Sequence record: SRR31156797_2194
DNA: 45,697 nt
Reading direction: 5' to 3' (one strand)
The notes beneath the pieces are model-generated. The model was not told the origin of the DNA, searched no databases, and saw nothing but the letters and a program-made list of their open reading frames with translations. The position numbers were made by a program, and so were the translations under genes. Shown here in pieces: positions 6,748-38,288 of the stretch (position 1 is the stretch's first letter; each line of letters starts with the position of its first letter).

Positions 6748-6778
6748 TTTCTTAATAAATTAAAGTTTTAAAGAAAAT

Positions 6779-6820
6779 AGGAGCTCTGCAGGCTAAACTG
6801 CAGAACTCCTTTATTTTTTT
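6779..6820. terminator. intrinsic terminator between convergent genes
   Basis: AGGAG.TCTGCAG...CTGCAGA.CTCCT stem followed by a T-rich run. Confidence 0.7.
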
Positions 6821-6821
6821 A

Positions 6822-8222: not shown

Positions 8223-8290
8223 GTAAATACCTCCGCCTATTTTTATTTGTAAAATCATTATTGCTAAATTTAAGTATTTATCTGTTTCTA

Positions 8291-8668
8291 TTACTCTGCA
8301 ATCAATTTATAAGGTACTTCTAAATCTTCTAATAACTCTTCTGCTACTTCTAACATATTTCTATCTTTAGCTTGATAAAACCAGTTAATTTCTACTACTC
8401 CGCCTTTTATATAATACTCTTCAAGTTCATCTAAAAGTTCCATTATACACTTAAGTGAACTAGAATTTAAGTATTCAACCCTAAAATTAAGTTTAACCTC
8501 TTTATTTATTTTTTCCAAATATTCTTCAACCCAATCAAAAATTGGATTAAAAAAGTCTAGGGCGTTTTCCGGATAAGATGTTCCCTTTAATTCGATTTCT
8601 CCTGATTCGACTAAGCATTCAACTCCGAAAGCATCTTTTTGCTGCGCTATAAATAAATCTTTCAACAC
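8291..8668 (-). CDS. siaC: SiaC family phosphoprotein (DUF1987)
   Basis: LKGTSYPENA, EYLNSSSLK, INWFY, AEEL motifs; 125 aa; GTG start abuts the stop of the SiaB-like gene. Confidence 0.85.
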   Translation of the reverse strand: MLKDLFIAQQKDAFGVECLVESGEIELKGTSYPENALDFFNPIFDWVEEYLEKINKEVKLNFRVEYLNSSSLKCIMELLDELEEYYIKGGVVEINWFYQAKDRNMLEVAEELLEDLEVPYKLIAE

Positions 8669-9241
8669 TTACCCCTCCTTATTAACCTTTACTTCCAATA
8701 TTAAAAAATCATGTTCTGAGTCAACATTCTGTGAACTAAACTCAAGTTTATTTCCAGACTGTCTTGCCATTTGAATTAGACCCAGTCCTGCGCCTTTTGA
8801 TCCTTCAGGTCTAGGCGCTCTTAATTTCTCTTTATAAAATTTTCTCAATTCTTTTGCTTCTAAACTATTAATATGTTCACATTTTTCAATTACACCAGCA
8901 GTTTGATCTTTTTTAACCCAATTTCCCGAAGTAACTCTAAAGCAATCACTATCTTCAATAATTATGATTACTCCGGTTCCAACTTCATGGTCATCTCTTT
9001 GAATTCTTTGAGCTGAGTAATGCTGTATATTTTGAGCTAACTCAATAAATATAGAATATACTTTTTTAGCTATAAAATATTTCTCATCATCTACCATCTC
9101 ATTTTCATCCATAGATAATTTTTCTTTCAAAGTTTCAACTAAATTTTTTAGTATTCCCTGAGAAAATTCCCCTTCAAATAATAAGATTATTTTATTCTCT
9201 TTAATTATTTGCTGAAGTTCAAACAAATCTAACTTTTTCAT
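8669..9241 (-). CDS. siaB: SiaB family protein kinase (GHKL / anti-sigma-like)
   Basis: FEGEFSQ, SIFIELAQNIQHYS N-box, GAGLGLIQMARQSG G-box. Confidence 0.85.
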   Translation of the reverse strand: MKKLDLFELQQIIKENKIILLFEGEFSQGILKNLVETLKEKLSMDENEMVDDEKYFIAKKVYSIFIELAQNIQHYSAQRIQRDDHEVGTGVIIIIEDSDCFRVTSGNWVKKDQTAGVIEKCEHINSLEAKELRKFYKEKLRAPRPEGSKGAGLGLIQMARQSGNKLEFSSQNVDSEHDFLILEVKVNKEG

Positions 9242-9274
9242 TAGAGGCTCCTTTCAATATATAAATTCATTGTT

Positions 9275-12200: not shown

Positions 12201-14662
12201 GCAAGTTTAACACCCTCACTATCATTTGAAAGTAAAAATTCAACTTCCAATAAACCTTTTCTAATTTTATAATTTATTTCATAATATTTTTCTTTATTTA
12301 ACTCTTTAATAAGTTCAAGTGCCATTAGATAATACTCTTTAGCAGGTCCGTAAGCAGTTGCTTCTTTAGCCTTATCTCCTGCTGAGAGATTTAAATGAGA
12401 TAATTTCATTTTTTCTTCTTTATCTGTTATTAAAACATAACTCTTATTCAAGTGCTCTACAATATCAAAAATTGCTGCCTCAAGTTCTTCTTGAGGAGTC
12501 TCTTTTAATAATAATCTTCCAATCTTTAAATGTGTTTCTTTTTTTCTTTCATCTTCAATTAACATATATGCTGCTTGCTGCACTCTATCATGAAGAAACT
12601 TATCAATTATTTCAGGAAATTCATCTGTTAACTCAAACTGATGAGAAACAAGTTCTTTAAGTAATGAATGTCCTTCTGTTTCTGCACTCAGATGCCCTGC
12701 CCTAACAGCAGGCCAAAGATTTTTCGCAACATCAATAATATTCATTTCACTAATAATTGCCAAAGTTTTAAGATTAAAAGTATTTCCGATACATGCTCCC
12801 AGTTTTAAAAGTTCTTTAGTTTCATCTGGAAGAGTTTCCAATTTAGCAATCATTAAATCAACCACATTATTGGCTATATCTTCTCTTCTTATCTTATCAA
12901 CATCCCATTCCCATTTTTCAGTTTGAGAGTTGAAGTTTAAGAATCCATTACTATATATACTCTTTAAAAATTGATTAACGAAAAACGGATTTCCATTAGT
13001 TTTATCAATAATTAATTTTGACAAAGGCTCTACTTCATTATATTCTCTGTTAACTGTCTCTGATATCATTTGATTAATATGCTCTAGCGTCAATGGTGTC
13101 AGAGTTAAAATAGGCATATCAACACCTTTAGTTCTAATATCCTCGGTCATCTGAATAAATGGATGATGTTCATCAACTTCATTATCTCTGTAAGCTCCCA
13201 TGAAGAAAAAATATTCATGCTTTTCCTCAGTTGTAAACAGTTTAATTAAGTTAAGAGTTGCTAAATCTGCCCATTGCAGATCATCTAAGAATAAAACCAG
13301 AGGATGTTCTTTTTTATTAAATACTTTTAAAAATTCTTGAAATACACTATTAAAACGATTTTGATTTTCCTCAGTTCCAAGATGTGAAACTTCTGGTTGA
13401 GGTCCAATTATTTTTTCTAACTCAGGAATAATTTCTATTAATACCTGACCATTAACTCCAAGAGCCTTTAATATTTCTTTTTTCCATTTCTCAAGCTCCT
13501 CAGTTGATTCACTTAATAGTTGCTTAATTAGAACTCCAAAAGCTTTTGAAATTGCTGAATAAGGGATATTTCTTTGGAATTGATCGAATTTTCCTTCTAA
13601 AAAATAACCATGCTTTTCTACTATTGGTTTATGAACTTCATTAATTAGCGAAGATTTTCCAATACCAGAGTACCCTCCAACTAAAAGTGACCTGAAATTC
13701 CCTTCAGATGCTTCAAGGAAAAGATTCATTAATAAGTCAATCTCCTTGGTTCTACCATAAAGTTTCTCAGGTATTTCAAAACGATCCGAGACGTCATTTT
13801 GACCCGGAACGAAATCTTCAATTATTCCATTTTCTGATAATTGCTTTTGACATAATTCTAAATCAAATTTTAGTCCAAAAGCACTCTTATATCTGTCTTC
13901 TGCTGTTTTAGACATCAGCTTCTCAATAATAAGGGCAATTGCTTCTGGTACATCATTTCTAAATTCACTAATTGATTTAGGGTTTTTAGCTATATGCGAG
14001 TGGATCCAACTCATAATATCGTTTTCACCATCAAACGGAAGTGAACCGGTCAATAATTCAAATAGTGTTACTCCTAAAGAATAAAAATCTGTCCTATAAT
14101 CAACAGGTCTATTCATTCTACCAGTTTGCTCCGGGGACATATAAGATAACGATCCCTTAAACATTTCAGCAGCCTGTCTCTGTTTTTCATTTGAAAGCTC
14201 ACTAGCTATTCCAAAATCAATAATTTTTATTCTTTCTTTTGAAGAGTTCCATAAGATATTTTTTGGTTTAATATCTTTATGCACAATAAATTGCTGATGG
14301 ATTTCTCCTAATACTTGTGCAAGTTGAATCGCTATCTCCAAAAACAGCTCTAGAGATATCTGTTTAATTCCCTCTATTAATTCCGAAATATCTCCGCCAT
14401 TAACATATTCCATGATCATAACTAAGTTATTTCCATACTTTACAAGGTCATATACTTGAGCAACTCCATTTGATTTTAACTTCTTATGCATTTGATATTC
14501 ATGTTGGAATCTTGCTATTTCATGCCTTGATGGGTATTCGTTATTTAGCATCTTCAAAATTACAACTTGACTATCTTCACTTCTTTTCCCTAAATAAATT
14601 TTGCTTCTGGGTGACTGATAAATTTCTTGACTAATTTCATACCCAGGAATATCTATATACAT
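9275..14662 (-). CDS. multidomain Ser/Thr kinase - AAA/STAND-like ATPase - helical repeat - GAF - PP2C/SpoIIE phosphatase
   Basis: Kinase HKDIKPKN, DFG, YMSPEQTGR; Walker A GYSGIGKS, Walker B LFLDDLQWAD; GAF LCIPL...LYLEN; PP2C VSGDFYW, DCTGHGVPGA, SDG, DDIT; start moved to ATG 14662 behind AGGAGG. Confidence 0.9.
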   Translation of the reverse strand: MYIDIPGYEISQEIYQSPRSKIYLGKRSEDSQVVILKMLNNEYPSRHEIARFQHEYQMHKKLKSNGVAQVYDLVKYGNNLVMIMEYVNGGDISELIEGIKQISLELFLEIAIQLAQVLGEIHQQFIVHKDIKPKNILWNSSKERIKIIDFGIASELSNEKQRQAAEMFKGSLSYMSPEQTGRMNRPVDYRTDFYSLGVTLFELLTGSLPFDGENDIMSWIHSHIAKNPKSISEFRNDVPEAIALIIEKLMSKTAEDRYKSAFGLKFDLELCQKQLSENGIIEDFVPGQNDVSDRFEIPEKLYGRTKEIDLLMNLFLEASEGNFRSLLVGGYSGIGKSSLINEVHKPIVEKHGYFLEGKFDQFQRNIPYSAISKAFGVLIKQLLSESTEELEKWKKEILKALGVNGQVLIEIIPELEKIIGPQPEVSHLGTEENQNRFNSVFQEFLKVFNKKEHPLVLFLDDLQWADLATLNLIKLFTTEEKHEYFFFMGAYRDNEVDEHHPFIQMTEDIRTKGVDMPILTLTPLTLEHINQMISETVNREYNEVEPLSKLIIDKTNGNPFFVNQFLKSIYSNGFLNFNSQTEKWEWDVDKIRREDIANNVVDLMIAKLETLPDETKELLKLGACIGNTFNLKTLAIISEMNIIDVAKNLWPAVRAGHLSAETEGHSLLKELVSHQFELTDEFPEIIDKFLHDRVQQAAYMLIEDERKKETHLKIGRLLLKETPQEELEAAIFDIVEHLNKSYVLITDKEEKMKLSHLNLSAGDKAKEATAYGPAKEYYLMALELIKELNKEKYYEINYKIRKGLLEVEFLLSNDSEGVKLADELIRDCKSNEEKVEINSILILYYGGAGEMDKAIEIALSTLKMYKVSIPRYPTMFDLVKELGKSKIKLIGKTPEMLKEMPKFTDENTHTIFSLLKELIAPAYLQGNTNLLPYIILKMFNLTLEHGNGPVASFAYSGYGLLWSKLNNFEDSYKFGKLAMEYNPFAEYPPMEARVYFMSTSFCLYWKQPLAELTEPRKTGLIKLIETGEYFWASYMYLFGFWQEVILSQSLSDIVRTADREKNFSEKAKQIEPFHVHKLHRNLFMNLMKTINDKESLDHEIDDEKEAADYFEKNKTSTMGVFYHTVCKIIKNYYYEKYDEAVEAATNPAITKEVVTDGTYTRIIYTFFTCLAILKKYKSLNNEHKKLYNRNKEDLRKWVSICKENFAFMWFVLLAEEYSIKGDDAKAFDYYEYAIQEAERMNSLMFESLGNELMAQHLLKKKRDKIATPYMTEAVYLYYRWEAVNKVEFLEEKYSHVINKTKPLNNFNEYYSETLQKTSSIPTISMTSRSSIIEGSSLDLESLQKASQALSSEIVMEKLILKLKNFLMENAGAQFGALLIKRGPRFYVEAKGSLKENEEIDLTPIPLEDCKDLALSIVRYCLRTKENIVLDNATKDGMFTNDKYVTAKDIKSLLCIPLITKDEITGILYLENNLTTHAFTQDRVRILKMLSSEMAIALDNAKLYQNLEEYSKTLEDKVNERTRALNEMNEELISKNMNITSSIKYAKRIQNAVLPDMTKIKEYLDQAFIIYKPKDIVSGDFYWYSKVGDNLFFAVVDCTGHGVPGAFLSMIGNTLLNKIVNENRVLQPSSILENLHVETRIALGQEKQNLKKRRLDQLDGMDVCLCKINTQDGLIEFAGAKRSLYIAKKNSDSRELIEVKGDRKSIGGRQKEDKRVFKNNEITLQEGDMIYMLSDGYVYQHDIDNKRFGMTRLEELILNIADHDLIKQETILTRELEDHMSEEQQRDDITLVGIRI

Positions 14663-14716
14663 AGTCGCCTCCTGAAAAGAAAAATTTATAATCAAATTTC
14701 TTTATTTTTTCTACCT

Positions 14717-26320: not shown

Positions 26321-26355
26321 ACACCCATGAATTTAAAAAATAAATTCATGGGTGT
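26321..26355 (-). terminator. terminator at the end of the polA-to-oxidoreductase gene run
   Basis: Perfect 15-bp stem ACACCCATGAATTTA/TAAATTCATGGGTGT with T-rich tail on the minus strand. Confidence 0.75.
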
Positions 26356-26364
26356 ATGTATAAT

Positions 26365-27933
26365 CTATTCATATACTTCTGCGAAGATATTATCTACTAT
26401 TTTTAATCCATCAATAGCAGCACTAACTATTCCTCCTGCATATCCTGCTCCCTCTCCTATCGGGTACAGATTAAATACATTTAGAGATCTTCCCTCTTGA
26501 TCTCTTGTTATTCTAATTGGTGCAGAAGTTCTTGTCTCCGGTGCGATAAAGTTAGCTCTTTCTGAAATAAAATGTTTATTTCTACTCCAGTAATCTAGTG
26601 CTTTATGCATATTTCTATTTATTACATCAGGAAAAAATTCATTTAGATTATGAGAATGAAGTCTCATACCATAACTTGACTCTATTTCCTTTTTTGTTTT
26701 TTTATTTTTCTTATAATCATGCACAGATTGATATAAGCCACCATAATTTCCTATTATTTCATATGTTTGCTTTTCTAATTTTTCCTGAAACTTTAGTCCT
26801 GCAAATAGTTCTGAACCATAGTCCTCTTCTCTTACAGCAACTACTACAGCAGCATTTGAGAATTTTCCATCACGTCCACTATAACTCATTCCATTTACCA
26901 AGCTCATACCCTCTTCAGAAGTTGCATTTACTATCTCTCCACCTGGACACATACAAAATGAGAATACTCCACGTTTCTCTTCTCTATTATTATAGACATA
27001 GTTATATGTAGCAGCTCCAAGATTTGGATGACCGGCAAATTTACCATATTGCATCTTATCTATATCTTCTCTTGGATTTTCTATTCTGGCTCCTACTGCA
27101 AAGTCTTTATTCTCCATAAACACAGCATGTTCATGAAGCATTCTATAAGTATCTCTTGCACTATGGCCAATTCCTAATAGAACATGAGCTACCTCTATTT
27201 TTTCACTATTATTAATCTCTATCTCATTTACTTTGTTATTAACTATCTTGACATCTGTAATTTGAGAATTAAAATAAAACTTTCCACCGGCACTTTTAAT
27301 TTTCTCTCTCAAATTTTTAACTACTTCTTTTAGCACATCTGTACCCACATGAGGTTTATAATGATATAAAATCTCTTCCTGAGCTCCATTTTCAACTAAT
27401 TCAGTAAAGACTTTATTCATATACCCGCTTCTAACTCTGGTAGTAAGTTTCCCGTCCGAATAAGTCCCAGCGCCACCTTCACCAAACTGGATATTAGAAT
27501 TTTTATTTAATTGATCATTTTTATACAAGGCTTCAACAGATTTATCTCTGTTCTCTACATCTTCCCCTCGTTCAAATATAAGAGGCTCATAACCATACTC
27601 AACTAGTCTAAGCGCAGCAAACAAACCTGCTGGTCCTGTTCCCACTACCGCTATCTTTCCTTCTAATTTTTTTGATTTTCTTTTTGCTTCCTGTTTTGAC
27701 ACTGCTTCTTTGCAATTTTTGATTTTACTAATATTCATTTTATTTTTTAGCTCAACAGATAGATTATAGATAAATTTTATATCATTTCTTTTCCTGCTAT
27801 CAATTGATCTTTTAATATATTCAACTTTTATTATATTACTCTTTTTTATTCCTGCTCTTTCAAGATGTTGCAATATTGCTTTATCTTGATTTTTTTCTAC
27901 AGAAATAGTTATATTACTAATCTCTATTTTCAT
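26365..27933 (-). CDS. FAD-dependent dehydrogenase (COG2509-like)
   Basis: VVGTGPAGLFAA, FGEGGAGTYSDGKL, SFCMCPGG, GEGAGYAGGIVSAA. Confidence 0.9.
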   Translation of the reverse strand: MKIEISNITISVEKNQDKAILQHLERAGIKKSNIIKVEYIKRSIDSRKRNDIKFIYNLSVELKNKMNISKIKNCKEAVSKQEAKRKSKKLEGKIAVVGTGPAGLFAALRLVEYGYEPLIFERGEDVENRDKSVEALYKNDQLNKNSNIQFGEGGAGTYSDGKLTTRVRSGYMNKVFTELVENGAQEEILYHYKPHVGTDVLKEVVKNLREKIKSAGGKFYFNSQITDVKIVNNKVNEIEINNSEKIEVAHVLLGIGHSARDTYRMLHEHAVFMENKDFAVGARIENPREDIDKMQYGKFAGHPNLGAATYNYVYNNREEKRGVFSFCMCPGGEIVNATSEEGMSLVNGMSYSGRDGKFSNAAVVVAVREEDYGSELFAGLKFQEKLEKQTYEIIGNYGGLYQSVHDYKKNKKTKKEIESSYGMRLHSHNLNEFFPDVINRNMHKALDYWSRNKHFISERANFIAPETRTSAPIRITRDQEGRSLNVFNLYPIGEGAGYAGGIVSAAIDGLKIVDNIFAEVYE

Positions 27934-27973
27934 TTTATTTTTATCCTTTTATTATAAATTCTTAAATTAAAGC

Positions 27974-28579
27974 TTATAAGAAGTTTTCTTTATAAAATTC
28001 AATAAGTGTTGGGAATTGATCAAAACTTTCTATTTGATGTTCTAAATATCCATATTGTTTTGCTTGCTCTAACATCTTAAAAACTTCTTTTCTTGCTTTT
28101 AATAGTTTATAGTTATTCAATTTCAAAATATCATCTACTGTTTCATTTTTAAATTCATTCAGTTCTGATTTTTTTGATATTATTTCTAAAGTCATCTCGT
28201 CATAAGTAAAATAATCTTTTGGATTCATTTCTACTGGATTTACAAATTTATCACTATATTTATGACCTTTTGTTTCTCCACAACTTTCTTTAGAATTACA
28301 ACATAAACTAAGGTTCATATAGTTTTGAAATTCATTTGAAAATTTAGCCCCTTTAGGTTTTATATGTTCAATATGACTAGAGTTATTATCTAAATCCACT
28401 TTCCTTTCACAATACACACATATATAATTTTCTTTATAACTCTGCTCATTATCACCAACATATTTTTTAATTTTACCTCTAATTCCGTCATTTCTATAAT
28501 CAGCCCAGTTTTTAGGCTTGTACTTCTTTTTATATTTTTTCATAAACTCTGGTTCAATAGTTTTATTAATATTTAGCAC
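27974..28579 (-). CDS. HNH endonuclease, PtuB / TIGR02646-like
   Basis: CVYCE, HIEHIKPK, YMNLSLCC...SCGETKG, then NP...LKLN; probable GTG start at 28579 behind AAAGGTG, overlapping the ATPase stop. Confidence 0.8.
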   Translation of the reverse strand: MLNINKTIEPEFMKKYKKKYKPKNWADYRNDGIRGKIKKYVGDNEQSYKENYICVYCERKVDLDNNSSHIEHIKPKGAKFSNEFQNYMNLSLCCNSKESCGETKGHKYSDKFVNPVEMNPKDYFTYDEMTLEIISKKSELNEFKNETVDDILKLNNYKLLKARKEVFKMLEQAKQYGYLEHQIESFDQFPTLIEFYKENFL

Positions 28580-29765
28580 TGCGCTCACCTTTTTTTCTCG
28601 CAATTGCCATATCTATCAAAATCATATCTTGATCAATTGTTCCAAGTAATTCTTTCAATTCATTATAGCTTTCCTTAAACTCAACTGTGAGAAATTTATC
28701 TCTTCTTACCAAATCTCGTAAATACTTTAATTTTTCTTCAACCTCAGGATCACGAATAGTATCTACTCCCATTAATTCTTTTAATACTACATCCACAGGT
28801 AGCCCTAGTGCTCCATCTAAATTTTCACCATCAATTATTTCAACACCATCATCACTTGATTTACTAAGTAGTTTTAATGATTCTACTTTTACTGATGAAA
28901 CAACATGTGGAGAGTGAGTTGCAATAATTATTTGATTATTTTCACCTATATTTTCATAGACTTTGACTACTCTTTGTTGCCATTTTGGGTGTAACGATAT
29001 TTCAGGCTCATCAATTAAAATAATCGAATTATTTACATTAAGCATTTTTAAAGTCATTGCTCTTACAAATAGTTGCTTTTCACCTGACGAAAGCGAGTTT
29101 ATATCGAATTCCGCACCAAATTTATTTTTAAATAGAGGAAGATTTTCTTCATCTTTTTTTACTCCAATCATTTTTATATCCAGATCTAAAATGGAGTATA
29201 TTATATTAATTTCATCACATATTTTTTTAATAGCTTGTTTAATTGGTAAATCTTCATTTTTATATATTTCACTGTTAATTTTTGTCACAAGAAATGAAGG
29301 AATATCATTAATTATATTTTGGTCAATTATATTGCTAAATTTATATTGATTTGTATAATTTCTTGTTTCGACATTCATATTAGAAAAATTAATTTCTGTA
29401 GGCATGTAAATTAATTTAATTTTTTTATTTTCTAAATCTTCATTTAATTTTTTTTGATACAATCGATTAAAAATATAATTTTTATTATAGAGTTTATCAT
29501 TGCCAAATTCTTCTTTTAACTTGTAAACCATATTTTTTATTTTAAGATCTGCTATATTTTCAAGAGTAAACTCTAAAGATGAATCATGTTGATTATTTTC
29601 ATAAGTTAAAATATCATATATCATTTTGAGTAATGTGGTTTTCCCACTCCCATTACTTCCTGCTAATACTACTGTATTTAATACCTCTCCATCTGAATTC
29701 TTAAGATTAATATCTGCATCTTTAAAAAGATGGTGATTTTTTATTCTTAATTTCGTTAATTTCAT
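28566..29765 (-). CDS. ABC-type (AAA_21-like) ATPase, PtuA-like
   Basis: Walker A GSNGSGKT, signature LSSGEKQ, Walker B ILIDEPEISLHPKWQ, IIATHSP; no TM domain; start moved to ATG 29765 behind GGAGG. Confidence 0.85.
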   Translation of the reverse strand: MKLTKLRIKNHHLFKDADINLKNSDGEVLNTVVLAGSNGSGKTTLLKMIYDILTYENNQHDSSLEFTLENIADLKIKNMVYKLKEEFGNDKLYNKNYIFNRLYQKKLNEDLENKKIKLIYMPTEINFSNMNVETRNYTNQYKFSNIIDQNIINDIPSFLVTKINSEIYKNEDLPIKQAIKKICDEINIIYSILDLDIKMIGVKKDEENLPLFKNKFGAEFDINSLSSGEKQLFVRAMTLKMLNVNNSIILIDEPEISLHPKWQQRVVKVYENIGENNQIIIATHSPHVVSSVKVESLKLLSKSSDDGVEIIDGENLDGALGLPVDVVLKELMGVDTIRDPEVEEKLKYLRDLVRRDKFLTVEFKESYNELKELLGTIDQDMILIDMAIARKKGERSAKY

Positions 29766-29792
29766 AATTATATCCTCCACCGTTATAATTAT

Positions 29793-31349
29793 TTACATTA
29801 ATTCTTGTTCCCAATATCGTTCTATCTTATTTTGTCTTATTTGGCTATATTGCTTAATTTGCTTCTTAACTATATTTGAGATATACTTTATCTTCTCTTC
29901 GTCAGCAGGATAATATATCGGTGTTTCACAAAGAGGCATTGCATATAGTTCAAGTACATCACCTTTCATTTTTCCATTATGTTGAAACCATTTATAGAAA
30001 AATTTTGAATTTAGATAACCTAAAATATAGTACAGATCAACACTAGTATTTAAGGCAGTCAAATAATAAATATCCGCACTTCCATAAAATTTACCTTTAT
30101 CAAAAGCAAAGTCATTTAGTCTATTTCGTTGTCTTCCTACTATCTTGGGTTTATTAAATATCTCTTCTGTTCTTGGCCACTGCAGTTCCCACCAATTTAT
30201 TATCTCTTTTATTACTTCTCTTCTATTTTTCAGCTTTTCAGAATAATTTGATAAATGTTCAATAAGTTCCTTACTTGGTTTCTTATTTTTATCAAGATAT
30301 AGAATCCAATACCTATTTTCTTTATTAACTTTATATTTACCAACATCTGTATTTTTATAAAACGGCTTTAAATATTGTTTTAATTCTTCATCATACTCTT
30401 TTAACACAAAAGCTTTATCACAACCACTTACGATTCCCTGATTTATTTTAAGTAAATCTTTTAACAAGTGTGTTCTTTTATTATATATTTTATCCAAAAT
30501 TTCTTGAGTATCTCTGCATGCAAGCAATATTTTATCATTATGATTATATAATTTACTGTTTTCTAAACAATATTTTGATCCATCACTTTGAACTATTTGT
30601 GCCTGCTCTTTTAGTTGTTTTGATTTTACTAAGCTAAATACAATATTATGCTGTCCTATTGCATCTTTAAATACTGATTTATTATAATCATTAATAAAAT
30701 AAAAGGAAGTATCTGTTTTTATCTTTTTTCTTAATTTAGTTGCATAGTCTGCCTTTAACCAATAATTTGTAGTTATATAAGTAAGAATACCATTTTCTTT
30801 CAGGCAATCTATCCCCTTCTCTATAAAGAAATAAAGATAGTCCATTCTACCTTCATAATATTTTTTTCCAAACTCAGTTTCTTTAATTTTAGCGAATATC
30901 TCTTTATTATTTTTTTCTCCTAAATAAGGGGGATTTCCAATAAGAATATCATATCTATTTTCTATTTTTGCAAAAAGCGAATTTTGAGAGAATAGTTTTA
31001 TTTTTTTATCTTTTAAGTTATATTTTTCGAATATCAGTTTAGCTCTGTCTTCAAATATAGTAAGAGCTTTTTTATCTATATCATAACCTTCTATCCACTC
31101 TTCTTTATAATCATAAACGCCAAAGTATATTTTATGAATTTTAATCAGGCTCTCTATTGCATCGATTAATAAATTTCCTGTTCCACATGAAATATCAGCA
31201 ATTTTTAAATTATTAAGTGCTTCTTGTTTATTTTTATTATTCTTAAAATAATATCTTAAACTAACTGCCAGCATCATTCTAGAGATATGTTCAGGCGTAT
31301 AAACTTTATAGTTAGTAGTTGTCTTCTTAAGTTCATTAATTAAAGACAT
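29793..31349 (-). CDS. gamma-class N6-adenine DNA methyltransferase (TaqI/Eco57I-like, resembles CamA)
   Basis: YTP, DISCGTGN (motif I), GNPPY (motif IV), C-terminal target-recognition region; start overlaps the murJ stop. Confidence 0.88.
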   Translation of the reverse strand: MSLINELKKTTTNYKVYTPEHISRMMLAVSLRYYFKNNKNKQEALNNLKIADISCGTGNLLIDAIESLIKIHKIYFGVYDYKEEWIEGYDIDKKALTIFEDRAKLIFEKYNLKDKKIKLFSQNSLFAKIENRYDILIGNPPYLGEKNNKEIFAKIKETEFGKKYYEGRMDYLYFFIEKGIDCLKENGILTYITTNYWLKADYATKLRKKIKTDTSFYFINDYNKSVFKDAIGQHNIVFSLVKSKQLKEQAQIVQSDGSKYCLENSKLYNHNDKILLACRDTQEILDKIYNKRTHLLKDLLKINQGIVSGCDKAFVLKEYDEELKQYLKPFYKNTDVGKYKVNKENRYWILYLDKNKKPSKELIEHLSNYSEKLKNRREVIKEIINWWELQWPRTEEIFNKPKIVGRQRNRLNDFAFDKGKFYGSADIYYLTALNTSVDLYYILGYLNSKFFYKWFQHNGKMKGDVLELYAMPLCETPIYYPADEEKIKYISNIVKKQIKQYSQIRQNKIERYWEQELM

Positions 31350-32799
31350 TTACTCCACCTCTTTTCAGAGGGTATGCCCAAATTCCTATATACACTCCGG
31401 CAAACATTAGTAATCTCAGGATTGAATTTTCAAATACAAAACTAAGTAGTAATGCTAAAATTGCACTCAAGAAAATAAAAAACAAAAACTTTATCACTTT
31501 TGCTAAATCAAGTTCTTGATATTTTTTATTAAAAACAATATAGAGCAATGTAAAATTAATACCTGAAGCAATTGCCGTAGACATCGCAAGTCCTATATGC
31601 TGGTAATACTGTATTAAAATATAATTTAATATTATGTTTGTAATTATAGAAATTATTGAGAAAATAACCGGAAATTTAGTATTTTTCATACTATAAAAGG
31701 CCCTACTCATTAGATGAACTGCTGTATAAAAATACAATCCTATGGAATAATAAAGTAAACATTCAGCAGTTATTTTAACTGATTCAGCGGTGTAATTCCC
31801 ATGTCCAAATACTATATTGATCACATCTTCTGAATAGATCATCAAAACTAACATACTTGGAATAATAAAAAATCCCAATATTTTTAATCCAGCTTCAATT
31901 TTATTTTTAAACTCTTTTTTATTTTCATTTGCTATTGCTTGGGACATATATGGATAAACTATTGTAGATAATGATATTCCAAATACTCCCAATGGTAAGT
32001 TATATATTCTCGTAGCATTTTCAAGTGCCGAAACTCCTCCACTTGGCAGATATGATGCGAAATATACATCTGCAAGGGAATTCACCTGTCTTGCAAATAT
32101 TCCTGCAAGCATTGGGATTATCATAATAAATATTTTTTTTAATGATTCATCTTTGAAATCTATAATAATTTTATATGTCTTTACTGATTGCCAAAACGAA
32201 GGTATTACTATTAAAAATTGTAATACGCCTCCTACAATTACCCCAAAAGCTAAGGCATAGATTCCATATTTATTTGAAAATATTAAAGCTCCAAGTATAA
32301 TTGAAATATTAAAAAACAGTGAAGTACTTGCCGGGATTGCAAATTTTTTGAAATTATTAAGTATTGCGCAGATCATTCCTGACAGGCCTATAAATAAAAT
32401 ATAAACTGCCATTATTTTTAATAATCTACCTGCTAATAATTGTGTTTTTGCATCATATCCTCGTGCTGCAAAACTCATAATTTGATTAGAAAATAAAAAT
32501 CCAAATGCAAATACAAAAATTAAAAAAATGAAAAGTAAATTAAGTATTGAGAAAATCAGCTTTTTACCTGCTTCATCTCCCTCCTCTTTTACTTTTTCAT
32601 TATAAATAGGAATAAATACTGTTCCCAGAGCACCTTCGCCTAATAACTGCCTAAATAAATTTGCTATTTTAAATGCAGAAAAATAAGCGTCTGTTAAAAA
32701 AGACGCTCCAAATAAATTTGCAATTATTGTTGCTCTTCCAAGTCCCAATACTCTACTAAGCATTGTTATAGCCATTACAATCATTCCGCTTTTAAACAT
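31336..32799 (-). CDS. murJ: lipid II flippase MurJ (MviN)
   Basis: SRVLGLGR, DAYFSAFKIANLFRQLLGEGAL, LPLGVFG, RAFYS; about 14 TM. Confidence 0.95.
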   Translation of the reverse strand: MFKSGMIVMAITMLSRVLGLGRATIIANLFGASFLTDAYFSAFKIANLFRQLLGEGALGTVFIPIYNEKVKEEGDEAGKKLIFSILNLLFIFLIFVFAFGFLFSNQIMSFAARGYDAKTQLLAGRLLKIMAVYILFIGLSGMICAILNNFKKFAIPASTSLFFNISIILGALIFSNKYGIYALAFGVIVGGVLQFLIVIPSFWQSVKTYKIIIDFKDESLKKIFIMIIPMLAGIFARQVNSLADVYFASYLPSGGVSALENATRIYNLPLGVFGISLSTIVYPYMSQAIANENKKEFKNKIEAGLKILGFFIIPSMLVLMIYSEDVINIVFGHGNYTAESVKITAECLLYYSIGLYFYTAVHLMSRAFYSMKNTKFPVIFSIISIITNIILNYILIQYYQHIGLAMSTAIASGINFTLLYIVFNKKYQELDLAKVIKFLFFIFLSAILALLLSFVFENSILRLLMFAGVYIGIWAYPLKRGGVNVFN

Positions 32800-33489
32800 C
32801 TACGCTACCCCGTTTACTTGTATTGTTTGTTCTGCTTCGTTTATGTAAACATCTCCGTTTCTATATAACTCTAGCACTCCTAGAAACAGATAAACTAAGT
32901 GAAGTTTACTTTTGGCACTTTCAAATATTTTTTTAATACATTGTTTCTTAACTCTAAATACTAATTCTCTAAGCGACAGCATCTCGTCTTCTAACGAATA
33001 TTGTTCATCGATGACTATTTCAAGTTCTTCAACTGTTTTAGCATCCAGAATTTTATAATATGTTTGAAATACTTTCTCAAGAGTCAATTTACTCAGATCA
33101 ATCTCTTTCGTTTCTTCATAATGCTTTTCTATTCCATTTCTTTCATAAGCAATATTGTGCTCTTTTTCCAAGAGACTAACTTTTTGACTAAGCATTTTAT
33201 ATCTATGATATTTAATAAGCCTCTGTTCCAGCTCATCTTCTTTTTCCTCTTTTTCCTCTATATTAAGTACGGCAAGCGCCTTTATCTCAAGAAGCTCAGT
33301 TGCCATTGTTAAAAACTCAACTTTTAGATTAACATCAGATTCTTGTAAACTATTTATTAAATTCAGATATGTTTCTATTAACTCCATCATATTAATTTTA
33401 CTTATCTCAAATTTATCTTTTTCAACAAGATGAAGAAGAAGTTCCAGAGGTCCTTCAAAATTTTCAATTTTAACTGTCAATTCTGTCAT
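32800..33489 (-). CDS. scpA: segregation and condensation protein A (kleisin)
   Basis: FEGPLELLLHLV, EFLTMATELLEIKA, FLGVLEL; start moved to ATG 33489. Confidence 0.9.
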   Translation of the reverse strand: MTELTVKIENFEGPLELLLHLVEKDKFEISKINMMELIETYLNLINSLQESDVNLKVEFLTMATELLEIKALAVLNIEEKEEKEDELEQRLIKYHRYKMLSQKVSLLEKEHNIAYERNGIEKHYEETKEIDLSKLTLEKVFQTYYKILDAKTVEELEIVIDEQYSLEDEMLSLRELVFRVKKQCIKKIFESAKSKLHLVYLFLGVLELYRNGDVYINEAEQTIQVNGVA

Positions 33490-33497
33490 TTTACACC

Positions 33498-34430
33498 TCA
33501 ATTATTTTTCAAATAATCTTTCCACACAATTACATCATTTTCTATTGTAGCTTTAAGTTCTTCCATCGAGTTAAATTTTCTCTCTTCACGAATGAACTTT
33601 TTAACTTTAACCAATAACTCTTTATCATATATATCCTGATCAAAATCAAGTATATGAACCTCTACGCTAAATTCACCCGGTTTAAGAGTGGGGTTGTTGC
33701 CTATATTCATAACAGCGTTATATATCTTAGCTTCACCCTCTATTGCTACTTCCACACCGTATATTCCAAGTGGCGGATATATTTTATTAAATATTCTCAA
33801 ATTAGCAGTTGGAAATCCCATCTTTCTACCCAGTTTTTTACCGTGGATTACATCTCCAATTATAATGAAAGGATAACCAAGATACTCCTCGGCTTTTTCC
33901 ATTTCACCTTTACCAATCAAACCTCTGATCAAAGTACTGCTAACTACATTATCTTCTATCTTAACAGGATTAACAACATGTACATCCATACCAAGTTGTT
34001 TTCCCATATTAACTAAAAGTTCAGGTTTCCCTGCTCTTCCTTTTCCAAATGTATAATTAAATCCAACAAAAACATGTTTTGCGTTAAGTCTGCCCTCTAT
34101 GATTTGAATAACAAACTCTTCAGCACTTAGGTTCTTAAACTCTTCGGTAAAATGAACAATTAGATGAACATCTACACCAAGCATTTTAAGAAGATGTCTT
34201 TTCTCTTTTTCATTATTTAAAAGTATCGTATTATTTTGTTTTCCAAAAATTGTTTGCGGATGTTGACTAAAAGTCATCACTACAGAAGTACCATTCATTT
34301 CACGGGCTTTTTCTACAGCACTTTTTATCAACTTCTTGTGCCCTTGATGTATTCCATCAAAGGTTCCAAGCGCCAAACAAATATTATTATAATTCTTAGT
34401 TAAGTTTTCCAGTCCAACTATTACTTCCAT
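33498..34430 (-). CDS. ribF: bifunctional riboflavin kinase / FAD synthetase
   Basis: GTFDGIHQGH, VSSTLIR, GRKMGFPTAN, NIGNNPT, EVHILDF. Confidence 0.95.
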   Translation of the reverse strand: MEVIVGLENLTKNYNNICLALGTFDGIHQGHKKLIKSAVEKAREMNGTSVVMTFSQHPQTIFGKQNNTILLNNEKEKRHLLKMLGVDVHLIVHFTEEFKNLSAEEFVIQIIEGRLNAKHVFVGFNYTFGKGRAGKPELLVNMGKQLGMDVHVVNPVKIEDNVVSSTLIRGLIGKGEMEKAEEYLGYPFIIIGDVIHGKKLGRKMGFPTANLRIFNKIYPPLGIYGVEVAIEGEAKIYNAVMNIGNNPTLKPGEFSVEVHILDFDQDIYDKELLVKVKKFIREERKFNSMEELKATIENDVIVWKDYLKNN

Positions 34431-34462
34431 ACCCACTTCTCCTCACTAAGGATTCTACCAGA

Positions 34463-34537: not shown

Positions 34538-35473
34538 TTATCCTTCAAAATCTTCGTCTTTTAGCTCAGCATGTAATTTCTCAAGTCTTCTAAATCTGTT
34601 TCTGATTCCTGATTTAGATATCCCTGCTATTACAGCTACTTCAGTAAGACTACTTTCAGGGTTCTCCAGCCTTATCTTTGCTGCTTCCTGCAGCACTTCA
34701 CTTAGATTCCCAAGACCATATTCATCATCTATAAATTCTATCATCCTAATCTGCTTTTGAGCAGTATCAAGTGTTTTCGTTTCATTTGCAACTTCCCAGT
34801 TCATTTCCCTGATAGTTCTGTTTTTCAGATCTTTCATCATGGTAACTTCTTCATATTCAAAGAACATTCTCATTGCACCGACAAGCACCATTATATCCAT
34901 TATATCTTCAGAATTCCTTAAATAAACTAAATTCTTATTTCTCTTATGAGTAATAAATACTCTTTTATCTCTTTTCTTTAACACATCATATAATACTCTT
35001 GCTGCTTCTTCACAATCAATAAAGAAATCCAGAGCATACTCCTTTTGTGGCTCTTTAATATAACCTGTCGCAAGAAATAATCCTCTAATATATCCAGCAA
35101 TATCTGCATCTCTTAATTCTTCTTCTGTTTGAATCACCGGAAGTTCAGCATTTATATGATCAAAAGCATTTTTTTGTAGTCTGGCTACATACTCTCTAAA
35201 TCCTCTTTGCAAAGGAATTAAGACAGTATAAACTCTATGCTCTCCAAAATTTTTACTAATTGAATATTTTGTAGAGATTATTAAATCAGTATCTTCGGAT
35301 AAAATTTTATAAAATCTCTTCGCAAGAGACATATTTTCTAATTTTAACTCTATTCTATTATCATAAATCGCATTCTTTGATTTTAAAATTGCATATATCT
35401 CTAATTCTCTGTCGAATTCTTCAGAGGGGTCATTTAAAAGAATTTCTTCTTTTACACGATTAGTATATGACAT
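34538..35473 (-). CDS. whiA: DNA-binding protein WhiA
   Basis: YIRGLFLATG LAGLIDADG-like segment, NWEVANETKT, RLENPESSL, ISKSGIRNR. Confidence 0.92.
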   Translation of the reverse strand: MSYTNRVKEEILLNDPSEEFDRELEIYAILKSKNAIYDNRIELKLENMSLAKRFYKILSEDTDLIISTKYSISKNFGEHRVYTVLIPLQRGFREYVARLQKNAFDHINAELPVIQTEEELRDADIAGYIRGLFLATGYIKEPQKEYALDFFIDCEEAARVLYDVLKKRDKRVFITHKRNKNLVYLRNSEDIMDIMVLVGAMRMFFEYEEVTMMKDLKNRTIREMNWEVANETKTLDTAQKQIRMIEFIDDEYGLGNLSEVLQEAAKIRLENPESSLTEVAVIAGISKSGIRNRFRRLEKLHAELKDEDFEG

Positions 35474-35501
35474 CGCAAGTTTCAACCTCCCTTAAAATAA
35501 T

Positions 35502-38288
35502 TTATTTTGCTTCACTCCAATTTTTACCTGAAGCAATATTAACTTCTAATTTTACATTTTTAAGATCAATAGTATTCTCCATGATATCTTTAATCATTTT
35601 ACTATACTCTTCAACTTTCTCATCTTTAACTTCAAATATAAGTTCATCGTGAACCTGTAAGTTCATAGTAATATCTTCTTTATCTTTCAATTCTTTATGA
35701 AGTTTAACCATTACTACTTTCAAAATATCAGCTGCACTTCCCTGTATAACCGTATTTACAGCCATTCTGATTGCTTGATTCTTAAGATTTTTATTTTTAC
35801 TGTGAATTCCTTCTATTGTTCTTTTTCTTTTGAACATAGTTCTTACGAAACCATATTCCTCAGCACTAGCAACTATCTCTGCTTCAAAAGGTCTAACAGA
35901 TTTATATTGATCGAAATATTTTTCGATATATTCTTCCGCTTCTTTTCTGGTAATTTTAAGTTCTCCGGCAAGTCCAAATGCAGTTTTACCGTAGATAATA
36001 CTAAAATTTACTATTTTTGCCATTGTTCTCTGAGGAATAGTTACTGTATCTTCTTCAGAAAGTTCAAATAGTTTTCTTGCAGTTAAATCATGCAGGTCTA
36101 AACCATTTTTGTAAGCATTTACTAAAGCTTCATCTTCACTTAACTCAGCTAAAACTCTTAATTCTATTTGTGAGTAATCAAGTGAAAGAATAGAGTAACC
36201 ATCTTTTGCAACAAAACCTTCTCTGATTTTTCTACCTTCTTCTGTTTTCGCAGGAATGTTTTGCAGATTAGGATTAGTTGATGATAATCTTCCTGTTGCA
36301 GCTCCCGTTTGATTAAAGCTGGTATGTAATCTGCCAACTCCGTCAGTTAACTTTGGTAATGCTTCAACATAAGTATTTTGAAGTTTAGATAATTTTCTAA
36401 ATTCAAGTATATATTCAGCTATTTTCTCTCCTCTGTCTTTAAGAGTTTCAAGCACTTCAACATTTGTAGAAAAACCTGTTTTAGTTTTCTTAACAGGAGT
36501 AATATTCATTTTCATAAACAATATTTCTGATAATTGTTTTGGTGATGCGATATTAAACTCTTCACCTGCTAAATTATAAATTTCTGATTTTAGGCCCTCT
36601 ATTTTTTCTAGTAGTTCAGCATTATATTTAGCAAAGAAATCTTTATCTATTTTGATTCCAACTCTTTCCATTCCGCTAAGAACCTTAATTAGTGGTTGCT
36701 CAAGTTCAAACAATAATTCATGAAGTTCAGCTGTATCAATCTCTTTAGAAAGGTTAAAATATATTTCATCTAACATTTCTGTTCTTTTAGCATAAAATTC
36801 TGCTAATTCCTCTATCATTACACTTTCCGGTTGAGCCTTACCAAACTTATCTTTGAAAGTCTCAAAAGTTTCGCCGGTTTCAGTAAATAACATATGATCT
36901 AAATCTTCTTTTGTATTTGAATAAAGAAGATAATAAGCAATCATCGTATCAAAATAAAAATTCTGAACTTCAAAGTCTTCATTTAGGATGTTTTTTAATT
37001 TATATGTAATTAATTTTTTATCTGCGTTAAGTATTTTTTGAATTGCCTGTTTCGATAAATTTACAGCACCTAAATAGTTATGTCTATAAGGCATATATGC
37101 TGTTTTGTTATCAGTTAATACCGTAAAACCAGCTCCGTTAAAGTAAACTATTACTTCTTCGCTTAACTCTTTAAGAAGTTCATCAACTTCAGCATCAGTT
37201 TTTATTATAATCTGTTCTCTATTTTTCCTCTTGAATCCTTCCTCTGATTCATCTTCAGAATTCATGTTTTCAGTACCAAATAGATCTTCAATAATTTCAG
37301 ATTCTTCCTCTTTTTCTTCAACTTCACCGAAAGTTTGATTAAAAAGAGTCATTGCAGGAGCAGCTGATTCATTCTTTTTAGCTTTACTAGTTCCTATTTT
37401 ATCTAATCCAAACTTTGATATAAATGATTTAAAATTAAGCCTTTGACTGATATCTTTTAGTTTAGCTTTATCCATCCCTTTATATTCAAGTTCACTTATA
37501 TTGATTTCTATATCTATTTCAGTTTCTATCGTAGCAAGTTCTCTGCTTAAAAATGCTAAGTCCTTATCTTCCACTATATTATTTACTAAGGATTTTCCAA
37601 CACCTTTGAATTCAATCAGGCTATCTACATTTTCATATATTCCCTCTAAATCTCCATATTTATCAAGCATTGGTACAGCTTTTTTCTCTCCAACTTTTCT
37701 AACTCCCGGAATTCCATCACTAGAATCTCCGATTAGTCCAAATAAATCCGGAATAAGAGTTGGTTTAACACCAAGATATTCTATTACGTCAGCCTCTGTT
37801 GTTAGATATTTAAGTCTACTTTTCCCTTCACCTTTTCCAAGTAAGCAGATATTTATATTATCATCAAGAAGTTGCGCTAAATCTTTATCTCCTGTTATTA
37901 TATAAACTTCTATTCCTTCTTTTCCGAGTTTTTTAGCCAAGGTTCCCATAACGTCATCGGCTTCATACCCTTCCACTTTAAATCTATCAATATTCAGAGC
38001 ATCGATCATGTTATCTATCTCTTCAAGCTGTCCGGCTAAATCTTCCGGCATAGGTTTTCTATTCGCTTTATATTTTTCAAATTTCTCTGTTCTTTTAAGA
38101 GTTGATCTCTTAACATCAAACGCTGCCATTACAAAGTCAGGATTTATTTCTTCTATAACAGTTGTAATTGTATTTGCAAGTCCGTAAACTGCCCCTGTAG
38201 GTTTTCCCTCTCTATTTCTCATATTCATAAGTGAATAGAAAGCTCTGTACATAATTGCACTCGTATCTAGTATTACCGCTTTTTTCAT
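35502..38288 (-). CDS. polA: DNA polymerase I
   Basis: YRAFY, EADD, GDSSDGIPGV (5' nuclease); TGRLSSTNPNLQNIP, DYSQIELR, QVHDEL (polymerase). Confidence 0.97.
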   Translation of the reverse strand: MKKAVILDTSAIMYRAFYSLMNMRNREGKPTGAVYGLANTITTVIEEINPDFVMAAFDVKRSTLKRTEKFEKYKANRKPMPEDLAGQLEEIDNMIDALNIDRFKVEGYEADDVMGTLAKKLGKEGIEVYIITGDKDLAQLLDDNINICLLGKGEGKSRLKYLTTEADVIEYLGVKPTLIPDLFGLIGDSSDGIPGVRKVGEKKAVPMLDKYGDLEGIYENVDSLIEFKGVGKSLVNNIVEDKDLAFLSRELATIETEIDIEINISELEYKGMDKAKLKDISQRLNFKSFISKFGLDKIGTSKAKKNESAAPAMTLFNQTFGEVEEKEEESEIIEDLFGTENMNSEDESEEGFKRKNREQIIIKTDAEVDELLKELSEEVIVYFNGAGFTVLTDNKTAYMPYRHNYLGAVNLSKQAIQKILNADKKLITYKLKNILNEDFEVQNFYFDTMIAYYLLYSNTKEDLDHMLFTETGETFETFKDKFGKAQPESVMIEELAEFYAKRTEMLDEIYFNLSKEIDTAELHELLFELEQPLIKVLSGMERVGIKIDKDFFAKYNAELLEKIEGLKSEIYNLAGEEFNIASPKQLSEILFMKMNITPVKKTKTGFSTNVEVLETLKDRGEKIAEYILEFRKLSKLQNTYVEALPKLTDGVGRLHTSFNQTGAATGRLSSTNPNLQNIPAKTEEGRKIREGFVAKDGYSILSLDYSQIELRVLAELSEDEALVNAYKNGLDLHDLTARKLFELSEEDTVTIPQRTMAKIVNFSIIYGKTAFGLAGELKITRKEAEEYIEKYFDQYKSVRPFEAEIVASAEEYGFVRTMFKRKRTIEGIHSKNKNLKNQAIRMAVNTVIQGSAADILKVVMVKLHKELKDKEDITMNLQVHDELIFEVKDEKVEEYSKMIKDIMENTIDLKNVKLEVNIASGKNWSEAK

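What the first reader, a model, noticed from the sequence alone, without database searches (positions are those of the whole stretch)
27974..31349. Methyltransferase + PtuA/PtuB-like ATPase-HNH module without a retron, inside a housekeeping operon
Seen: three co-directional, tightly packed genes, N6-MTase, then 27 nt, then ABC-type ATPase overlapping an HNH nuclease. They sit between murJ and a conserved FAD dehydrogenase, and I see no terminator until 26321. Known: this ATPase/HNH pair matches Septu (PtuAB) and the effector of type I-A retrons, where RT-msDNA restrains it. Here there is no RT and no room for an msr-msd. Inference: either a stand-alone Septu captured by the polA operon, or an undescribed three-part system in which the MTase protects self DNA or acts as the guarded sensor that triggers PtuAB.
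Basis: partly seen in the sequence, partly recalled or inferred. Interest (0 to 1): 0.8.

Follow-up and report, generated by a model that had tools for sequence, protein, structure and literature searches.

The report
Ordinary Septu cassette beside resident methylase
A standard two-gene Septu anti-phage module (PtuA ATPase plus PtuB nuclease) has been inserted into a housekeeping operon right behind a methylase gene that was already there, so the apparent three-gene system is a neighbourhood accident and not a new defence system.

Summary
On the minus strand lie murJ, an N6-adenine MTase (29793-31349), 27 nt, PtuA (28566-29765), PtuB (27974-28579, 14-nt overlap), 40 nt, then an FAD-dependent protein gene. 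PtuA and PtuB match Septu models strongly, their catalytic motifs are intact, and the window holds no RT or retron RNA.

- Four Fusobacteriaceae relatives carry the same operon (polA-whiA-ribF-scpA-murJ-MTase-FAD gene), with the MTase stop touching the FAD gene start and no ptuAB.
- The MTase occurs in 98 of 131 family genomes, usually behind scpA or murJ. It resembles CamA, the orphan methylase of C. difficile.
- PtuA is patchy (27 of 131) and never lies beside this MTase. Counts: 0 of 30 and 0 of 79 MTase loci hold ptuAB, and 2 of 80 PtuA loci hold a loose MTase homolog.
- The closest PtuA (60%) sits elsewhere in a genome that has the intact operon.

Verdict: an ordinary type I Septu inserted between two resident genes. 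This scan noted true methylase-linked Septu subtypes on other DNA. Their PtuA was reported to carry an extra N-terminal domain, which this one lacks.

The parts
27934..29792 (-). Inserted segment: 27-nt leader, ptuA, ptuB and a 40-nt trailer (1859 bp). It is absent from the same junction in four relatives.
   Evidence: In L117-L120 the MTase stop overlaps the FAD gene ATG or lies 10 nt before it. The MTase C-terminus and the FAD protein N-terminus of the window align to their ends.
28566..29765 (-). ptuA: Septu ABC/SMC-type ATPase, 399 aa
   Evidence: PADLOC PDLC00289 2.1e-132 over the full length. Best PDB hit by sequence is PtuA 8ee4, 7e-15. Walker A (G36-K42), signature (S226-Q231), Walker B (D252 E253) and the H-loop histidine (H284) are invariant in 20 homologs and present here.
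27974..28579 (-). ptuB: Septu HNH nuclease, 201 aa, overlapping ptuA by 14 nt
   Evidence: PADLOC PDLC00332 2.8e-36. TIGR02646 scores 53.6 bits against a cut-off of 52.15. C54, Y56, C57, E58, H72, N89, C94 and C100 are invariant in 14 homologs and present here. H72 aligns with the His that is Ala in the variant chain 9o4a of the retron Ec83 HNH.
29793..31349 (-). Resident CamA-like orphan N6-adenine DNA methyltransferase (flank, not part of the cassette)
   Evidence: Pfam Eco57I plus TaqI_C. PDB hit 7lni/8cxz: 4e-37 with the single sequence, 8e-62 with the profile, nearly full length. 7LNI is CamA. Found in 98 of 131 family genomes, behind murJ or scpA in 23 of 30 loci.
31336..32799 (-). murJ (upstream flank), 14-nt overlap with the MTase start
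   Evidence: Pfam MurJ 1.9e-108. murJ-MTase adjacency is conserved.
26365..27933 (-). FAD-dependent protein gene (downstream flank)
   Evidence: Pfam FAD-depend_C 3.8e-61. It lies directly after the MTase in L117-L120 and L238.
26321..26355 (-). Terminator-like hairpin ending the operon
   Evidence: 15-pair stem followed by a T run

Best explanation
This is a stand-alone type I Septu system (PtuA ABC-type ATPase plus PtuB HNH nuclease). A bare two-ORF cassette of 1859 bp was inserted exactly into the junction between two resident, formerly translationally coupled genes at the end of the polA-whiA-ribF-scpA-murJ operon of a Fusobacteriaceae bacterium. Those two genes are a CamA-like orphan adenine methylase and an FAD-dependent protein gene. 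Shown here: the gene identities, the intact catalytic motifs, the empty site in relatives, and the independent distributions of the MTase and PtuAB. Inferred: the cassette has no room for its own promoter or terminator (27-nt and 40-nt spacers), so it is probably transcribed by read-through from the housekeeping operon and translated from its own ribosome-binding sites. Inferred from published work on other Septu systems (passages read in PMC12640716): PtuA and PtuB form a 6:2 complex whose nuclease is held off by ATP and which nicks or cleaves DNA when activated during phage infection. The methylase is a bystander that most likely serves a housekeeping or epigenetic role, like the orphan methylase CamA.
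For: Identity: PADLOC PtuA 2.1e-132 and PtuB 2.8e-36, both better than the retron I-A models (2e-39 and 5.1e-27). Motifs are intact.

Empty site: 4 of 4 relatives that share the operon have the MTase stop overlapping the FAD gene ATG or lying 10 nt before it, with no ptuAB. Metagenome contig L238 shows the same junction.

The MTase is resident. It is found in 98 of 131 family genomes, 91 of them at E of 6e-128 or better. It lies directly behind murJ in 14 and behind ribF-scpA in 9 of the 30 best loci. In 39 of 79 metagenome loci it follows scpA. Its identity to relatives (47-61%) tracks that of its housekeeping neighbours.

PtuAB is mobile. It is found in 27 of 131 family genomes, always at a different contig or a distant position from the MTase, and 9 of those genomes have no MTase hit. 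MTase homologs were found in 0 of 20 family PtuA loci and in 2 of 80 PtuA loci across phyla, neither adjacent.

The closest PtuA (60%, G001) lies on another contig, with its own leader and terminator-like hairpins. G001 also has polA...murJ-MTase with no PtuA or PtuB hit in the 2.4 kb downstream of the MTase.

Tree: the window plus G001 form a clade (SH-aLRT 99). It is sister to PtuAs of Aminicenantes, Deferrimicrobiota and Desulfobacterales, and lies apart from the main Fusobacteriaceae PtuA clade of 20 rows.
Against: No expression or phage data exist for this locus. Only the probable source run holds the sequence. No genome closer than about 60-68% protein identity in the flanking genes was available, so the insertion cannot be dated, and loss from relatives is not formally excluded. 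The root of the PtuA tree is unknown. Base composition does not mark the cassette as foreign: PtuA is 0.259 and PtuB 0.248 GC against 0.261 for the resident MTase. PtuAB does sit inside restriction-modification or BREX operons in a minority of other loci, so methylase proximity may not always be neutral.
Confidence: 0.85

Rival explanations
1. A functional three-part system formed by capture. After insertion, PtuAB came to depend on the neighbouring methylase, either through the m6A mark as a self label (restriction-modification-like) or through the MTase protein as a guarded sensor.
For: The three genes are tightly packed and co-directional, with no room for separate regulation. In other phyla PtuAB is embedded in methylase-containing operons: hsdS-ptuAB-hsdR in L017, L024 and L025, hsdR-ptuAB-hsdM in L043, and mod-ptuAB-res in L042. 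Earlier unchecked notes of this scan describe methylase-linked Septu subtypes.
Against: The MTase exists without PtuAB in every other locus examined: 0 of 30 and 0 of 79. PtuAB of this lineage exists without the MTase: 78 of 80 loci, and 9 family genomes with PtuA and no MTase hit. The methylase-linked PtuA subtype noted earlier in this scan is said to carry an extra N-terminal domain of about 180-210 aa. This PtuA starts its Walker A at residue 36 and matches the 404-position PtuA model end to end. The MTase is of the orphan CamA type.
Confidence: 0.05
2. MTase-ptuAB-FAD gene is the ancestral order in this lineage, and ptuAB was deleted precisely in the relatives. This concerns history only. 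PtuAB would still be an independent Septu.
For: The relatives are distant (about 60-68% identity in flanking proteins), and the direction of change cannot be rooted.
Against: It would need clean deletions restoring tight MTase-FAD junctions in two junction types, TAATG overlap and a 10-nt spacer. The PtuA sister (G001) is at another locus. PtuA is present in only 27 of 131 family genomes.
Confidence: 0.07
3. The cassette is an inactive remnant that is merely carried along in the operon.
For: It has no promoter or terminator of its own. No expression data exist.
Against: Both ORFs are full length against their models. All ATPase and HNH invariant residues are present, and each gene has a ribosome-binding site.
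Confidence: 0.05

Closest known systems
Septu type I (PtuA/PtuB; Doron et al. 2018, recalled and not read here; E. coli PtuAB structures 8EE4/8EE7/8EEA)
   Same: It is a two-gene ATPase plus HNH pair with overlapping ORFs, strong PADLOC PtuA and PtuB matches and intact motifs. PtuA 8ee4 is the best solved relative by sequence.
   Different: Sequence is only distantly related to the solved E. coli proteins (7e-15 over the C-terminal third). It is embedded without its own regulatory DNA in a housekeeping operon.
Type I-A retron / Septu type II (Retron-Eco4/Ec83, Retron-Eco7/Ec78)
   Same: The effectors are homologous: NCBIfam retron Ec78 PtuA 1.8e-34 and PtuB 7.1e-24, both below their cut-offs; PDB chains of Ec83 and Ec78 are hit.
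   Different: No RT and no msr-msd are present, and the spacers are only 27 and 40 nt. The retron PtuAs are about 540-550 aa, against 399 aa here.
CamA, the orphan adenine methylase of Clostridioides difficile (PDB 7LNI; PMC8187626, passages read)
   Same: For the MTase only. It is a gamma-class N6-adenine MTase with a TaqI-like target-recognition domain and nearly full-length similarity (profile E 8e-62). It has no nuclease partner in relatives and is conserved across a clade.
   Different: The match is distant (phmmer E 4e-37 over residues 40-496; identity not computed). The target motif is unknown. It sits in the polA-scpA-murJ operon of Fusobacteriaceae. [quoted passage not shown]
Hma (helicase, m5C methyltransferase, ATPase), reported to occur often near Septu type I (PMC8565338, passages read)
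   Same: It is a published case of a methyltransferase-containing module found beside Septu.
   Different: Hma is a separate three-gene candidate system with an m5C MTase and a helicase. There is no helicase here, and the MTase is an N6-adenine enzyme resident in the operon.
MADS (mad1-mad8 methylation-associated defence system)
   Same: There are weak generic hits: the MTase to mad2 (2e-13) and PtuA to MAD3 (66 bits).
   Different: The MAD3 score is far below its 420-bit cut-off. No mad1 or mad4-mad8 genes are present, and the effector is HNH, not Toprim.

Membership tests
Septu type I | PtuA: ABC/SMC-type ATPase matching PtuA models, with Walker A/B, signature motif and H-loop | tested here: met
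   PDLC00289 2.1e-132, model positions 1-398 of 404; invariant motif residues present
Septu type I | PtuB: HNH nuclease matching PtuB models, with catalytic His and Cys ligands | tested here: met
   PDLC00332 2.8e-36; TIGR02646 above its cut-off; C54 Y56 C57 E58 H72 N89 C94 C100 conserved
Septu type I | ptuA and ptuB adjacent and co-directional, with no RT gene upstream | tested here: met
   14-nt overlap; no RT in the window's ORFs of 110 aa or more
Septu type I | Protects against phage; forms a 6:2 PtuA:PtuB complex | not testable with these tools
Type I-A retron (Septu type II) | RT gene and msr-msd non-coding RNA next to ptuAB | tested here: not met
   No RT domain; no Rfam match in the 45.7 kb; spacers of 27 and 40 nt
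Type II restriction-modification pair (MTase with PtuAB as its nuclease) | Methylase and nuclease are co-inherited as a unit | tested here: not met
   MTase loci without PtuAB: 30 of 30 and 79 of 79. PtuA loci without an adjacent homolog of this MTase: 80 of 80, with non-adjacent homologs in 2.
Methylase-linked Septu subtype noted earlier in this scan (e1-2615965, e1-4189909; unchecked AI notes) | PtuA carries an extra N-terminal domain of about 180-210 aa | tested here: not met
   Walker A begins at residue 36 of 399, and the protein matches the plain PtuA model end to end
MADS | Eight-gene mad1-mad8 operon; MAD3 ATPase above the NCBIfam cut-off | tested here: not met
   MAD3 66.3 bits against a 420-bit cut-off; no other mad genes beyond generic hits
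CamA-like orphan adenine methylase (for the MTase) | Gamma-class N6-adenine MTase with a TaqI-like TRD, full-length similarity to CamA, no partner nuclease, conserved across a clade | tested here: met
   NPPY; 7lni/8cxz; 7LNI is CamA; resident; flanked by murJ or scpA and the FAD gene
CamA-like orphan adenine methylase (for the MTase) | Methylates a defined motif (CAAAAA for CamA) with a regulatory role | not testable with these tools
   Needs methylome sequencing of the organism or of a host expressing the gene

The most novel reading that the evidence does not exclude
Having landed directly behind a core CamA-like orphan methylase, and being co-transcribed with it, this PtuAB has come to use that enzyme's m6A mark (or the enzyme itself) to tell self from phage DNA. 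That would be a restriction-modification-like pairing created by capture and not by co-inheritance. It would also give a natural test of how Septu discriminates self from non-self.
Probability: 0.05. Interest if true: 0.65.

Novelty: new member of a known kind. Interest (0 to 1): 0.2.

Why it matters
As it stands, this is an ordinary Septu type I system. Its value is mainly as a caution: tight packing next to a methylase does not make a three-gene system. It does show that a bare ptuAB cassette can be inserted cleanly into the junction of two translationally coupled housekeeping genes and ride on their transcription. The more useful by-product concerns the methylase. A CamA-like orphan adenine methylase is a near-core gene of Fusobacteriaceae, fixed in the polA-whiA-ribF-scpA-murJ operon. 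The CamA literature read here treats CamA as nearly specific to C. difficile.

Tried and rejected
- Co-fold of PtuA (alignment A1) with the MTase (alignment A2).
- Search for sequencing runs. Only one holder was listed, marked as a possible source of this DNA, and no RNA holder was listed. I did not lay reads, so there is no independent population or expression evidence.
- Whole genome of the window: none is held. Relatives were reached through loci of other genomes.
Indirectly, no PtuA above 60% identity exists in the 5.8-billion-protein collection, so an orthologous ptuAB on those contigs is not on record.
- Base composition as a mark of foreign origin was uninformative.
- The promoter scan was uninformative: 90 sites found against 81 expected.
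- Earlier findings of this scan for this place and for this MTase sequence returned nothing.
- Literature on Septu embedded in hsd operons returned only irrelevant hits, because 'septu' also matches 'septum'. The search on Septu, PtuA and methyltransferase listed 13 papers. I read passages from three, and in those I saw no Septu-adenine-methylase system. PMC12318543 (Li et al. 2024) is not held, so its content is cited only through passages of PMC12640716.
- MADS and retron I-A readings were rejected on the membership tests above.
Full report
**1. What is there**

All genes of the region lie on the minus strand. In transcription order they are:
- polA (35502-38288)
- whiA (34538-35485)
- ribF (33498-34436)
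- scpA (32800-33501)
- murJ (31336-32799)
- a 518-aa methyltransferase (29793-31349; Pfam Eco57I plus TaqI_C; GNPPYLGEK motif)
- a 27-nt spacer carrying GGAGG
- a 399-aa ATPase (28566-29765)
- a 201-aa HNH protein (27974-28579, overlapping the ATPase by 14 nt)
- a 40-nt spacer
- a 522-aa FAD-dependent protein gene (26365-27933)
- a strong terminator-like hairpin (26355-26321)

The ATPase matches PADLOC PtuA model PDLC00289 at 2.1e-132 over the full length. The HNH protein matches PtuB model PDLC00332 at 2.8e-36. Both matches are better than those to the retron I-A effector models (2e-39 and 5.1e-27).

NCBIfam TIGR02646 is passed by PtuB. The retron Ec78 PtuA and PtuB equivalogs are hit but fall far below their cut-offs. 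By sequence, the best solved relatives are E. coli Septu PtuA (8ee4, 7e-15) and the retron Ec83 HNH (1.4e-5).

The catalytic residues are in place. In PtuA, Walker A (G36-K42), the signature motif (S226-Q231), Walker B (D252 E253) and H284 are invariant in an alignment of 20 homologs and present here. In PtuB, C54, Y56, C57, E58, H72, N89, C94 and C100 are invariant in 14 homologs and present here.

No RT domain occurs in any ORF of 110 aa or more in the window. No Rfam family reaches its gathering score. The rest of the window is housekeeping and signalling genes with no other convincing defence system.

**2. Is the methylase part of the system?**

No whole genome is held for the window, so I reached relatives through other loci.

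*From the PtuA side.* A scan of one genome per species with a PtuA alignment gave 530 relatives, of which the best 80 were kept with up to 10 kb on each side.
- tblastn with the window's proteins found PtuB next to PtuA in 58 of 80 loci.
- It found a homolog of this MTase in only 2 of 80: L072, 1.8 kb upstream, and L080, 3 kb downstream. Neither is adjacent.
- The closest PtuA is only 60% identical (L001, a Fusobacteriaceae MAG) and has no MTase homolog in the 5.1 kb upstream.

*From the flanking-gene side.* The FAD protein was found in 115 of 131 genomes of that family. I fetched 19-kb regions for 20 of them.
- Four (L117-L120) carry the whole operon polA-whiA-ribF-scpA-murJ-MTase-FAD gene with no ptuAB.
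- The other 16 have the FAD gene elsewhere.
- In the four, the MTase stop overlaps the FAD ATG (TAATG) or lies 10 nt before it.
- The window's MTase C-terminus and FAD N-terminus are complete, so the extra DNA is exactly 27934-29792 (1859 bp).

*From the MTase side.*
- The MTase is present in 98 of 131 family genomes, 91 of them at E of 6e-128 or better.
- In the 30 best loci it follows murJ directly in 14 and ribF-scpA in 9. None of the 30 holds PtuA or PtuB.
- A scan of metagenome contigs with an MTase alignment gave 79 loci. Of these, 39 show scpA and 34 show murJ upstream, one (L238) shows the FAD gene directly downstream, and 0 of 79 hold PtuA or PtuB.

*PtuA within the family.*
- PtuA occurs in only 27 of 131 family genomes, each time on another contig or far from the MTase.
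- Nine of these genomes (G002, G003, G034, G038, G039, G041, G044, G045, G046) have no MTase hit at all.
- None of 20 family PtuA loci has an MTase homolog within 1.5 kb.
- In G001, which holds the closest PtuA, the operon polA...murJ-MTase lies on one contig with no PtuA or PtuB hit in the 2.4 kb downstream of the MTase. ptuAB lies on another contig, with its own 152-nt leader and terminator-like hairpins on both sides.

*Tree.* I built a quick maximum-likelihood tree of 58 PtuA rows. I left out the more distant loci L056-L080, L167 (the same place as L001), partial matches under 340 residues, matches with stops, and duplicates. The window and G001 fall together (SH-aLRT 99). Their clade is sister to one of Aminicenantes, Deferrimicrobiota and Desulfobacterales. 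It lies apart from the main Fusobacteriaceae PtuA clade of 20 rows. The root is not known.

**3. What the methylase is**

Its relatives in the protein collection are Fusobacteriota proteins (Hypnocyclicus, Ilyobacter, Psychrilyobacter, Cetobacterium, Haliovirga, Fusobacterium necrogenes), named adenine-specific or Eco57I-domain methylases.

Against solved structures, a profile of the family matches 7lni/8cxz at 8e-62 over nearly the whole length. The single sequence matches at 4e-37. 7LNI is CamA, the orphan adenine methylase of C. difficile (passages read in PMC8187626).

[quoted passage not shown] The gene is therefore best read as a resident, CamA-like orphan methylase with a housekeeping or epigenetic role. 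That role is inferred and its target motif is unknown.

**4. Mechanism**

The best-supported reading is an independent type I Septu. Passages read in PMC12640716 say that stand-alone PtuA and PtuB assemble 6:2, that ATP binding inhibits the nuclease, and that the complex nicks plasmid DNA. The same passages report that retron-linked relatives deplete tRNA-Tyr or cut ssDNA. I infer the same general mode here.

The only local peculiarity is that the cassette has no regulatory DNA of its own, so it probably depends on read-through from the operon. That is inference from the spacer lengths, as the promoter scan was uninformative. According to PMC8565338, only 7.6% of Septu systems have an RT, so the lack of a retron is normal.

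**5. What speaks for a link with methylases**

Among 72 ORFs directly upstream and 64 directly downstream of PtuAB in the 80 loci, a minority are restriction-modification or related genes:
- HsdS upstream with HsdR downstream in L017, L024 and L025
- HsdS upstream in L056
- HsdR upstream with HsdM downstream in L043
- a Type III-like Mod upstream with Res downstream in L042
- an HsdR N-terminal fragment downstream in L008
- PglZ downstream in L014
- SNF2 helicases in L023, L030, L035 and L041
- AbiH in L047

Only one locus (L042) has a DNA methylase gene tightly upstream, and it belongs to another family (N6_N4_Mtase). PMC8565338 also reports an m5C-methylase-containing module, Hma, often near Septu.

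Earlier unchecked notes of this scan describe methylase-linked Septu subtypes on other DNA, one with an extra N-terminal domain on PtuA. That domain is absent here.

These points keep a small probability for functional coupling by capture. My attempt to co-fold PtuA with the MTase was not executed by the tool, so it says nothing either way.

**6. Verdict**

Of the two interpretations offered, the plain one holds: a stand-alone Septu captured by the operon. This is a new member of a known kind, and its interest is low.

Noticed in passing
window 29793-31349 (-); L117-L120, L137-L166, L190-L242: The methylase is a CamA-like orphan N6-adenine MTase (PDB 7lni/8cxz, profile E 8e-62). It is present in 98 of 131 Fusobacteriaceae species genomes and sits behind scpA or murJ in the polA-whiA-ribF-scpA operon. 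The CamA papers read here describe CamA as rare outside C. difficile. A clade-wide homolog in a chromosome-maintenance and cell-wall operon may be an unstudied epigenetic regulator.
   Followed up: partly
L017 8598-14741, L024 8538-14758, L025 3544-9809, L043 7149-13388, L042 8077-14838, L014 840-5266: In several Clostridia and other loci, ptuAB is wedged inside restriction-type operons with spacers of about 30 nt. The arrangements are hsdS-ptuAB-hsdR, hsdR-ptuAB-hsdM and mod-ptuAB-res, and in one case ptuAB sits directly before a BREX PglZ gene. This could be a conserved arrangement, reminiscent of PrrC inside a Type I system (recalled), and not only defence-island clustering.
   Followed up: partly
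L187 (G115:C33) 6309-9630: In another Fusobacteriaceae genome, a PtuA gene (42% identical) lies convergent with the ortholog of the same FAD-dependent protein gene, at its 3' end. This is a second, independent Septu insertion beside this gene. No PtuB was detected by tblastn in the 587-nt gap.
   Followed up: no
window 8291-14695 (-): An 1806-aa protein with Ser/Thr kinase, AAA_16, GAF and SpoIIE phosphatase domains is followed by DUF6272 and SiaC-family genes. This looks like a large partner-switching signalling module. Its PADLOC kinase hits (PD-T4-6, mad6) look generic.
   Followed up: no
G071:C1:1272782-1274082: In one family genome the otherwise conserved MTase gene is broken by several stop codons, so the gene is dispensable in at least one lineage.
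   Followed up: no
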